DNA of 64,000 nucleotides from assembly GCA_951406725.2 (NCBI GenBank), contig OX597821.1:1984001-2048000 (forward strand), written 5' to 3'. Both the position numbers and the translations under genes were made by a program. Positions 50,335-57,463 of this stretch are shown here, piece by piece. The notes beneath the pieces are model-generated. The model did not search any database, was not told the origin of the DNA, and was given only the letters and a program-made list of their open reading frames with translations. The DNA comes from Octopus vulgaris (taxonomy: Eukaryota). Position 1 is the first letter of the stretch, and the number at the start of each line of letters is the position of its first letter.

Positions 50335-51780
50335 GCGCGTGTATATATTTATATATCTGTATGTATTTATACGAACGTGTGCTCTGAGACGGAGAGAGTT
50401 GATAGACAGCGATATCTGGGGTTCCTCGTATGCTATAAATAGCCGGCAAATTTCCATCAAATCGCACTCGCAAGTCTTTATAAGATAAGAAATAAAAAGA
50501 AAATTTCAGTTATTCCGTCAGTGGTATACATTAAAATGTTATGGGATGGTCACGGCTGTCGCGCTTTTGATCGTAGCAAAATTCGATGAGATATACAAAA
50601 AACAATTACCTGCATCTTATTGTTTATATGTAGAACAGTTTATTTGAAACACTGTATAATTACGGAATTTGTACCTATACTTTATCCATAAGGTCATACC
50701 TGTATACAATTATATTAGAATAGACCAACCATTTTAGATATGCTATCAGAAAATAAAGGCGTAAAGTAAAAGCAAAGAAAAGAATACCATGCTAATATTA
50801 CTTATATATACATATATGTTTATGTTCCTTAATATATTCCATCAGTAAATTCTTCTCTAGTGCTTAGTTATTCTTCGGTTCAGAAGGTAAAAATAATTGT
50901 TTATTCGTGTCACATTCCATACAGCTATTTCTCGTAAGAGGTCAACAACTATCAAACTTACCCGAAGAAAGAATTATCTCAATTTGATATCAAGATTAGT
51001 GTAGTGGAAGAAAATGGTGAAAGAAGAAACTAAATGCCTTTAAGTATTCACTTTCGTAACTGCTCGTTCTAAAATCAAATTACAGTGGAGGAGATTCTCG
51101 CCCTGTCTTTCTATGCAGATAATAAAATTAGTACCAGTAAAATAATGTACTCTATTCGGTCCAATCAACACAGCAACCTTGTGCCGATGTGTCAGTTTAT
51201 GCCAATGTAACGTAGTAATATTAGCTGGTTTCATTTAAGATGAAATTCTATAGTTTCGCTCACACAGCAAAGAAATGTGTTACGTTGAACGTATAATGGT
51301 AGCTGTTTGTATCTGATGGATGAGGTCACTATCGCCACGCACCGAAATTCTGTTGCTACTATGTCCCGATTATATAAAGGACCAACAAGGAAAGCTTATT
51401 GCATGTTCAAAGATATATCAGGATATATATATATATATATATATGATATAGATATACATGCACACACACACATACATACATACATACATACATACATACA
51501 TACATACATACATACATACATACATACATACACACATACATACATACAAATATACATACGTATATATATACATACATGCATATATATATACATATAAACA
51601 TATATACACGCGCACACACACGCACACACACACACGCACACACACACACACACACATAAATGTTACCACAGTATTATATACCGATGAGACATAATGTTGT
51701 AGCTAAGGCACTCTATAATGAAAGATAATCCCTAGCACACAGAAATAAGAACCCACAGCATGGTAGAAGCCATAGCCATT

Positions 51781-51950
51781 CATAATAAAAAGGAATACTG
51801 GTGGAGTGAACCAGTGAAGATCTCAATAAAATGTAAGCATAACAGACCTGATATACTGATTTGGGATATGAAGATAAACTGTGCACAGTTGTGGATATTA
51901 GCTGCTCAGTGGATGTTAATATAAATCAGTGAAAAAGAGAACACCTAAGA
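51781..51950 (+). pseudogene. Decayed RLE fragment of an R4/Dong-type LINE
   Basis: HNKKEYWWSEPVKISIKCKHNRPDILIWD / KLCTVVDISCSVDVNI / SEKEN, the PD..D RLE motif with frameshifts. Confidence 0.75.
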
Positions 51951-52494
51951 TGAAGTATTAGTCACTCTTGTTGATGTTAAAATTGCAATACAGGAGCCTT
52001 AGATGCAGGTTAGAAACCAACTCTTTCTCTATTGGCAACAAATCTTGAAATAAAGCTGAATGATGATATACATATATCAGCCACACTTATTTAAATATAT
52101 ATATATATATACAAATTGAGATAGGGGTTGTGAGTGCAACCCACCATGTGATAACAGATATCCAATATACTGCCAGTAAAGCACCCAACAAAGTTAATAG
52201 ATAAATGTTAAGAATTGCTATGCAATTAATTCCTTTATTGTATTATATGGGCGAAGGTAAAATGTTTTGCCACAAATTCATAATACAAAATAAGAAAATG
52301 GAGAAATACACCTTAATCAATAATCAACTGCCAGATAATACCCATTCACATAATTTATTAACACACTACATATGAACATCACGGTCAAACATAATAGTAC
52401 AGAACAAAACATTGCACATCAATGAGTAATATAATACAATAGGTACAATATGCATAAATAAATATAAATGAATATAAATATAAATATAAACTAT

Positions 52495-52617
52495 ATCTTA
52501 CAGCTGTTTCAGCCATGTAGATATGAGTATCTCATTATCCTCATATTAGCCAGGTGTGATAAGTTAATATGTGGTAATAAATGAGACACAAATATATCCC
52601 AAGGCCTCTTCAGAGAT
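52495..52617 (-). ncRNA. Type I hammerhead with canonical core and ~96-nt stem II hairpin
   Basis: ATCT-CTGAAGA-GGCC..GGATAT..GTGTCTCATT..CATATTA(loop)TAATATG..AATGAGATAC..ATATCT..GGCT-GAAA-CAGCTG-TA-AGAT. Confidence 0.85.
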
Positions 52618-52779
52618 TATAAAGTACAATCTAAATATGAATATCAGAGAAGATACACCCATACAAGAATGAGTAGATATACATAATATATAATATACAC
52701 ATACATATAAGTGTATATACACATGCACCTATATATATATACGTATATACATAATAATACATAATAATAATATATAATA

Positions 52780-53176
52780 GGCGCAGGAGTGGCTGTGTGG
52801 TAAGTAGCTTGCTAACCAACCACATGGTTCCGGGTTCAGTCACACTGCGTGGCATCTTGGGCAAGTGTCTTCTGCTATAGCCCCGGGTCGACCAATGCCT
52901 TGTGAGTGGATTTGGTAGACAGAAACTGAAAGAAGCCTGTCGTATATATATATAGATATGTATGTTTGTGTGTCTGTGTTTTTCTCCCTTGCATTGCTTG
53001 ACAACCGATGCTGGTGTGTTTACGTTCCCGTCACTTAGCGGTTCGGCAAAAGAGACCGATAGAATAAGTACAGGGCTTAGAAAGAATAAGTCCCGAGGTC
53101 GATTTGCTCGACTAAAGGCGGTGCTCCAGCATGGCCGCAGTCAAATGACTGAAACAAGTAAAAGAGTAAAAGAGTA
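52780..53176 (+). mobile_element. SINE A, young full-length copy
   Basis: Near-identical to 1969-2373. Confidence 0.9.
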
Positions 53177-53531
53177 ATATATAATATATAATATTATAAT
53201 ATTCTAATATATTGAATTGACTAACTGTAACCTTATATATATGTATGTGTATTATTATATACATACATATATATAATGTTAAACTGTTATTTAGGTTTCA
53301 TATTTCTGACTAACAAAGAATTTGTTTTCCACTACCAAGTATCTTACCAGTTGTTTCACAATTGCAAGCATGAAAATTTAAATACCAACAATTTCAGCTT
53401 TAAATTACTCACACACACAAACACACACACAGGTGCGCACGCAAGAACACACATATACGATATAACGACGGGATACAACACAAGACCAACGAGAAGATTT
53501 ATAAAGGAATCAGCAAATACAAAATACATAC

Positions 53532-56553: not shown

Positions 56554-57463
<910 letters not shown>

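What the first reader, a model, noticed from the sequence alone, without database searches (positions are those of the whole stretch)
52495..52617. Canonical HHR whose stem II is a ~96-nt multi-segment hairpin
Seen: an intact CUGAAGA/GAAA/GUA core, palindromic ACAGCUGU stem III, and four consecutive helices in stem II. Inference: the long arm could be a protein-binding or editing-sensitive (allosteric) module, or a captured hairpin.
Basis: partly seen in the sequence, partly recalled or inferred. Interest (0 to 1): 0.7.

Follow-up and report, generated by a model that had tools for sequence, protein, structure and literature searches.

The report
Long-armed hammerhead of Hydra-clade retrotransposon
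This is a hammerhead RNA motif at the tail of a broken copy of a known kind of animal jumping gene; its side arm is about four times longer than in published relatives and is kept paired across related families, so it likely serves as a folding or protein-docking scaffold, while cutting and RNA editing are untested.

Summary
The motif is real. The minus strand at 52617-52495 carries CUGAAGA, a 96-nt stem II, GAAA, palindromic ACAGCUGU and GUA. It sits near the 3' end of a 5'-truncated Penelope-like retrotransposon copy inserted in (TA)n. Longer copies carry RT and GIY-YIG with Hydra-clade motifs. Hammerheads in these elements are known, but published Hydra stems II are 10-24 nt. Here 2192 of 2239 exact-core matches in the genome have spacers of 50 nt or more. 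The arm is selected: across 23 subfamily sequences, 8 of 36 pairs show two-sided changes, and internal branches keep pairing 16 times against 3 breaks. It is therefore inherited, not a hairpin captured at this locus. 'Canonical' overstates it: short stem I, G-U at 10.1-11.1, predicted inactive monomer. I found no fossil sign of editing and no excess of copies starting at the cut site. Best reading: a dimer- or protein-dependent ribozyme whose arm is a conserved RNA scaffold; tolerated expansion is the main rival. This scan noted long-stem-II Penelope hammerheads before on other DNA (e1-9545524, e1-8669291). New variant of a known kind.

The parts
52614..52617 (-). Stem I, 5' strand (AUCU)
   Evidence: sequence; pairing with 52495-52498 in the constrained fold
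52607..52613 (-). Catalytic core C3-A9 (CUGAAGA); its CUG is predicted to pair with CAG of the palindrome in the monomer
   Evidence: invariant pairing in RNAalifold; probability 0.6-0.9 in this copy
52511..52606 (-). 96-nt stem II arm: basal helices 52606-52594 with 52524-52511, middle helix 52589-52580 with 52536-52527, distal hairpin 52574-52539
   Evidence: fold; z -4.45; covariation in basal and middle helices
52499..52510 (-). GAAA, palindromic stem III ACAGCUGU and H17; predicted cut between 52499 and 52498 (GUA)
   Evidence: self-duplex -11.1 kcal/mol; invariant in 23 of 23 aligned sequences, (all selected on this motif)
52495..52498 (-). Stem I, 3' strand (AGAU)
52110..52765 (-). 5'-truncated copy of a Hydra-clade Penelope-like element: end of the long 3' non-coding region, ribozyme and tail; no ORF left
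   Evidence: 86-92% identity to longer copies L053, L055, L026; L053 carries RT and GIY-YIG 2.3 kb upstream of the same ribozyme
52280..52305 (-). First fixed 3' end of the family, about 215 nt after the cut site; inferred reverse-transcription start 1
   Evidence: copy ends pile up here; analogy to PMC11167929
52110..52145 (-). Second fixed 3' end, about 390 nt after the cut site, with a short GGGUUG/CAACCC hairpin; this copy ends here; inferred start 2
52095..52111 (.). (TA)n target site
   Evidence: most copies end in (TA)n
53191..53261 (+). Inverted 70-bp continuation of the element's upstream sequence (5' inversion), separated from the main piece by a 400-bp repeat at 52780-53180
   Evidence: contiguous in element coordinates 2154-2231 and 2230-2907 of L055

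Best explanation
This is the pseudo-LTR hammerhead motif of a truncated Hydra-clade Penelope-like retrotransposon, with a long stem II kept base-paired by selection, that is predicted to be inactive as a monomer and likely cuts only as a dimer or with help from the element's protein, the arm likely serving as the folding and docking scaffold. Shown: identity of the element, core nucleotides, inheritance and covariation of the arm, two fixed 3' ends, (TA)n targets, tandem copies with a ribozyme on each side of the ORF. Predicted: the arm closes stem II firmly, and the core CUG pairs with CAG of the palindrome, giving an inactive rod 5.5-10 kcal/mol below the active fold. Inferred: in tandem transcripts two ACAGCUGU palindromes pair, free the core and release a unit-length RNA with the arm at its 3' end. 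Inferred: reverse transcription starts 215 or 390 nt downstream and usually reads through an uncut (or religated) ribozyme. Inferred, least certain: the conserved middle helix and the asymmetric loop about one turn from the core are where the RT-endonuclease or a host protein binds. This particular copy is a dead fragment.
For: Element identity: walk from the window to L053 with RT and GIY-YIG; sister family with an open 962-codon frame and ribozymes at 1079 and 6683 of L060; Hydra motifs. Arm selection: 8 of 36 pairs with two-sided changes and 90.4% of cells paired, against 31-49% for slid controls, on a sequence-only alignment; RNAalifold finds 7 of 22; parsimony on 21 pairs gives 16 pair-keeping against 3 breaking changes on internal branches, and 8 against 6 on tips; z of -2 or lower in 18 of 19 arms. 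The 5' strand of the basal and middle arm is 62-84% identical among subfamilies A, B, C, E, against 43-56% just after the cut. Monomer inactivity: active fold less stable than the MFE in 10 of 10 sequences. Precedent: the Anolis Penelope ribozyme cuts only with its protein, and uncut RNA is the main template (PMC11167929); minimal PLE hammerheads show low activity as dimers and none as monomers (PMC4209133).
Against: No cleavage, binding or expression data. Arm length varies from about 50 to 110 nt or more, and the distal hairpin differs between subfamilies. Subfamily D keeps the middle helix only weakly and one copy (L128) does not fold better than shuffles. The tail is more conserved (72-89%) than the arm (48-83%), and the 100 nt upstream score 53-68%, close to the arm. 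The whole element is expanded (2 kb 3' region, 180-nt tail, Asn-rich linker), so the arm may have grown passively. Copies starting at the cut site are not enriched (4 true junctions against 2-3 at a control site). CUG:CAG pairing is weak (probability 0.02-0.4) in 3 of 10 sequences. The structure was derived from these sequences, which favours it over slid controls, and the tree came from the same alignment.
Confidence: 0.55

Rival explanations
1. The arm is a tolerated expansion. Minimal PLE hammerheads lack the loop I-II contact, so loop II can grow; selection only keeps the insert paired so that stem II still closes.
For: Lengths run from about 50 to over 110 nt; distal part not homologous between A and B; one-sided and two-sided changes are freely accepted; the element is expanded everywhere.
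Against: Only 47 of 2239 exact-core matches are shorter than 50 nt, and several of these look like deletions of longer families, so short forms do not seem to amplify. CUCAUU/AAUGAG and the loop UAA are nearly invariant in subfamilies A, B, C, E.
Confidence: 0.33
2. The arm is an A-to-I editing switch: ADAR editing of the long duplex turns cleavage on or off.
For: A 33-pair imperfect duplex is a plausible ADAR substrate, and coleoid cephalopods edit repeats heavily (own knowledge; the host is only inferred to be octopus-like).
Against: No strand-biased A-to-G excess in the arm: 5 A>G against 3 T>C in 30 family A copies, 2 against 2 in 59 family B motifs (small numbers). A-to-G differences in the guessed-RNA contigs also occur in genomic copies and in run X18.
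Confidence: 0.07
3. The arm is a hairpin captured at this locus or a chance fold between unrelated core motifs.
For: The genome is AT-rich and full of inverted repeats; Rfam gives no hammerhead hit.
Against: 2239 pattern matches against 1 control; inheritance with compensatory changes across subfamilies; fixed position in the element.
Confidence: 0.03

Closest known systems
Hammerheads of Hydra-clade Penelope-like elements, e.g. Hydra-1_Obim, Penelope-1_NV (Craig et al. 2021, PMC8557442; read: outline, passages, section 11, supplement parts 1-2 of 59)
   Same: Type I motif near the element's 3' end; short stem I; ACAG/CUGU-type stem III in several families; (TA)n targets; RWK-like, DKT and CxCX5C motifs, no CCHH.
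   Different: Published stem II plus loop is 10-24 nt in the 26 Hydra rows of File S2; here 85-110 nt. The longest in that table is 53 nt (Selaginella PLE-X1). These elements are about 5.6 kb with a 949-aa protein, against under 3 kb in general. The listed Hydra-1_Obim ribozyme has a different sequence.
Minimal PLE hammerheads (Cervera and de la Pena 2014, PMC4209133; read: parts 1-2 of 4)
   Same: Short helix I, palindromic helix III, longer-than-usual helix II with bulges, predicted dimer activity.
   Different: Their helix II is 6-8 bp; here about 33 bp in several segments.
Anolis Poseidon element PAc (Frangieh et al. 2024, PMC11167929; read: parts 1-2 of 4)
   Same: Two fixed 3' ends downstream of the ribozyme, AT-rich targets, copying through an uncut ribozyme.
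   Different: Other clade; its ribozyme overlaps the start codon, here the ORF starts about 520 nt after the cut; the tail is described as 30-40 bp, here about 180.
Discontinuous Clec2 hammerheads of mammals (review PMC2950038; read: passages)
   Same: Natural hammerheads with a large insertion in a loop.

Membership tests
Type I hammerhead ribozyme | Core C3 U4 G5 A6 N7 G8 A9, G12 A13 A14, A15.1-U16.1, H17 | tested here: met
Type I hammerhead ribozyme | Three helices around the core, helix I open | tested here: met
   Stem I 4 bp, stem II long, stem III 2 bp or intermolecular; not the predicted minimum-energy monomer fold
Type I hammerhead ribozyme | Self-cleavage after H17 | not testable with these tools
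   Only contigs were available; the fossil test showed no enrichment
Canonical (extended) hammerhead | G10.1-C11.1 pair | tested here: not met
   G-U in this copy and in 9 of 23 aligned sequences; G-C in 14
Canonical (extended) hammerhead | 4-bp helix II with a loop that contacts loop I | tested here: not met
   Helix II continues for about 33 bp; a contact through the internal loop cannot be excluded
Penelope-like element, EN+ | One ORF with RT and C-terminal GIY-YIG | tested here: met
   L053: Pfam RVT_1 E 1e-5 and GIY-YIG E 0.006, both below the curated cut-offs; open frame in sister family L060, which itself gave no Pfam hit; the window copy has no ORF
Penelope-like element, EN+ | Partial tandems, inverted 5'-truncated copies, two 3' ends | tested here: met
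Hydra clade of PLEs | RWK-like motif, DKT, CxCX5C linker, no CCHH | tested here: met
   RWR, DKT, CNCRNKNKC in L060; DKT and CNCRNRDEC in family A L053; definition
Hydra clade of PLEs | Insertion into (TA)n | tested here: met
Hydra clade of PLEs | Placement in an RT phylogeny with named Hydra elements | not tested
   The published proteins were not available as query sequences
Non-LTR retrozyme | Short non-coding tandem units, each with a hammerhead | tested here: not met
   Single motif in the window; belongs to a coding element

The most novel reading that the evidence does not exclude
Octopus-like genomes hold a lineage of Hydra-clade retrotransposons whose hammerhead has become a regulated RNP switch: a self-locking core (CUG:CAG) plus a conserved 50-110-nt arm that binds the element's RT-endonuclease and decides between cutting the RNA and copying it uncut. 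It would be a natural counterpart of engineered stem II aptazymes, missed by short-stem search patterns and by Rfam.
Probability: 0.25. Interest if true: 0.7.

Novelty: new variant of a known kind. Interest (0 to 1): 0.4.

Why it matters
The role of hammerheads in Penelope-like elements is stated as unknown in the papers read (PMC8557442, PMC7761336). A young sister family (99% identical copies, at least one open 962-codon frame) with a covarying arm gives a direct way to test protein-assisted cleavage and the purpose of the ribozyme. It also shows that standard patterns undercount these motifs: Rfam missed this one, and over 2000 long-spacer matches exist in one genome. The copy in this window has no evident function for the host.

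Tried and rejected
Rfam scans found no hammerhead. RNA search: no RNA holder listed on record. Four runs were laid as contigs, which cannot show ends, strand or editing; higher depth 3' of the ribozyme also appears in run X18 and was not used. Contig loose ends at 52630, right after an AG, suggested a splice site; the loose sequence matches the upstream DNA of another subfamily (L123, 1 of 148 loci), so splicing was rejected. Cut-site fossil test: 5 hits at the family B cut site (4 true junctions, 1 mutated core), 3 at a control 8 nt downstream (2 clean), 2 at the family A cut site; no enrichment. Editing fossil test negative but weak. The lower substitution rate of the family B arm against its flanks was not used, because flanks are low-complexity and partly truncated. 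My first label 'Neptune' was dropped after reading the Hydra definition. Linking the 50-60-nt-arm families to an ORF failed: 0 of 20 fetched stretches showed a linked ORF, only 2 weak distant hits; their PLE origin rests on the shared 3'-end motif and stem III. RNAalifold gave no consensus for those arms; only their basal 5 pairs were counted (one search was misregistered and is void). A likeness between the middle helix and the 3'-end motifs was noticed but not tested. Lunse et al. 2017 and Arkhipova et al. 2017 are not held, so long stems II reported there cannot be excluded. Seven literature searches listed no paper describing 85-110-nt stems II in PLE hammerheads; supplements of PMC4209133 were not read.

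Full report
Observation. The arm folds into a 33-pair segmented rod, better than 200 of 200 shuffles. Rfam does not recognise it. The motif is not canonical in the strict sense: G-U at 10.1-11.1, four pairs in stem I, and a palindrome in place of a stem III hairpin.

Context. A DNA search of the own genome (2.8 Gb) scored 40 of 1195 candidates; all 40 were full matches at 93-100% identity. Thirty copies have ragged 5' ends and two fixed 3' ends followed by (TA)n, often with inverted pieces. Walking upstream reached L053, which carries a broken RT and GIY-YIG frame, 2.3 kb of non-coding DNA and the same ribozyme. The window copy matches L053 at 86% over 496 nt and has a 70-bp inverted continuation beyond an inserted 400-bp repeat. 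A younger sister family (B; ORF 72-77% identical; 40 of 510 candidates scored, 99-100% alike) has an open 962-codon frame flanked by two ribozymes 5.6 kb apart. Its protein has RWR, DKT and CxCX5C and lacks CCHH, the features that define the Hydra clade (PMC8557442 section 11). The nearest named relative is from Argonauta hians; that the host is octopus-like is my inference.

The arm is inherited and selected. Exact patterns with the same core and stem III give 4, 43, 410, 1707 and 75 matches for spacers of 4-19, 20-49, 50-80, 81-111 and 112-142 nt, with 1 control match in all. Of the first 100 listed, I read 8 as family A type, 85 as B or C, 6 as D or E and 1 as other. I aligned 23 sequences chosen by hand from 102 GGCC-type motifs, leaving out subfamily D, whose distal part aligns poorly. 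RNAalifold finds the basal and middle helices unaided, with two-sided changes in 7 of 22 pairs. With my structure, 8 of 36 pairs show two-sided changes and 90.4% of cells pair, against 31-49% when slid. On a tree from the same alignment, internal branches carry 16 pair-keeping and 3 pair-breaking changes; tips carry 8 and 6 (21 pairs, three poorly paired columns and the distal hairpin left out). That contrast fits selection during transposition and neutral decay afterwards. The distal hairpin differs between subfamilies.

Mechanism. Folding predicts the active monomer to be less stable than an inactive fold in 10 of 10 sequences; in this copy by 5.5-10 kcal/mol, with core CUG paired to CAG of the palindrome. 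The palindrome self-pairs at -11.1 kcal/mol, and tandem copies provide a second ribozyme on the same transcript. Minimal PLE hammerheads show no monomer activity and low dimer activity (PMC4209133); the Anolis one needs its protein, and uncut RNA is the main template, copied from two internal starts (PMC11167929). The two fixed ends here fit two such starts. Copies beginning at the cut site are rare and not enriched over a control, so cut products are seldom copied. I commit to a dimer- or protein-dependent ribozyme with the arm as scaffold (0.55). Tolerated expansion (0.33) is the serious rival: lengths vary, the tail is more conserved than the arm, and the whole element is enlarged. Editing (0.07) has no support: no A-to-G excess among copies, and no usable RNA reads.

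Comparison and novelty. Hammerheads in Hydra elements are published, with stem II plus loop of 10-24 nt in 26 rows; the longest in that table is 53 nt. Seven searches listed no description of 85-110-nt arms, but two relevant papers are not held and the supplements of PMC4209133 were not read. Earlier notes of this scan report long-stem-II Penelope hammerheads in this and another genome; they are unchecked AI notes and add no independent support. Verdict: real, a new variant of a known kind, interest 0.4.

Noticed in passing
G000 matches, e.g. C1:6151225-6151366: A further family with the same core and stem III but a spacer of about 120-135 nt starting GCTAGC; arm not folded.
   Followed up: no
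L070-L098, L199-L218: Many older families with 50-60-nt stem II share the 3'-end motif about 70 nt after the ribozyme; basal helix covaries; no linked ORF found.
   Followed up: partly
window 52125-52142 (-); L060 7125-7150: Short GGGUUG/CAACCC hairpin just before the second 3' end, kept in families A, B, C; candidate RT start signal.
   Followed up: partly
window 52580-52592 (-) against 52110-52125 (-): The middle-helix strand UCUCAUUU resembles the motifs at both 3' ends, so the arm's 3' strand could also pair with the end-2 motif; significance not tested.
   Followed up: no
L060:1701-4547 (+): Family B protein is 949 aa, with long Asn-rich inserts between RT and endonuclease; relatives are about 700 aa. 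Several copies differ by a frameshift near the C-terminal CxxC.
   Followed up: partly
window 52780-53180 (+): A 400-bp SINE-like repeat with 14 further matches in the window, inserted at the element's inversion junction.
   Followed up: partly
window 56779-57332 (-) and about 51736-51924 (+): Remnants of LINEs with a restriction-like endonuclease: the first matched by tblastn, the second seen only by eye in a translation.
   Followed up: partly
L063:8193 and 8545 (+): Two ordinary minimal hammerheads 352 nt apart (14-nt stem II, CUCGAG palindrome), retrozyme-like.
   Followed up: no
L052:3069-5275, L054:3180-5378 (+): Tandemly repeated TPR-like host gene about every 13 kb on C20, each unit carrying a family A copy.
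   Followed up: no
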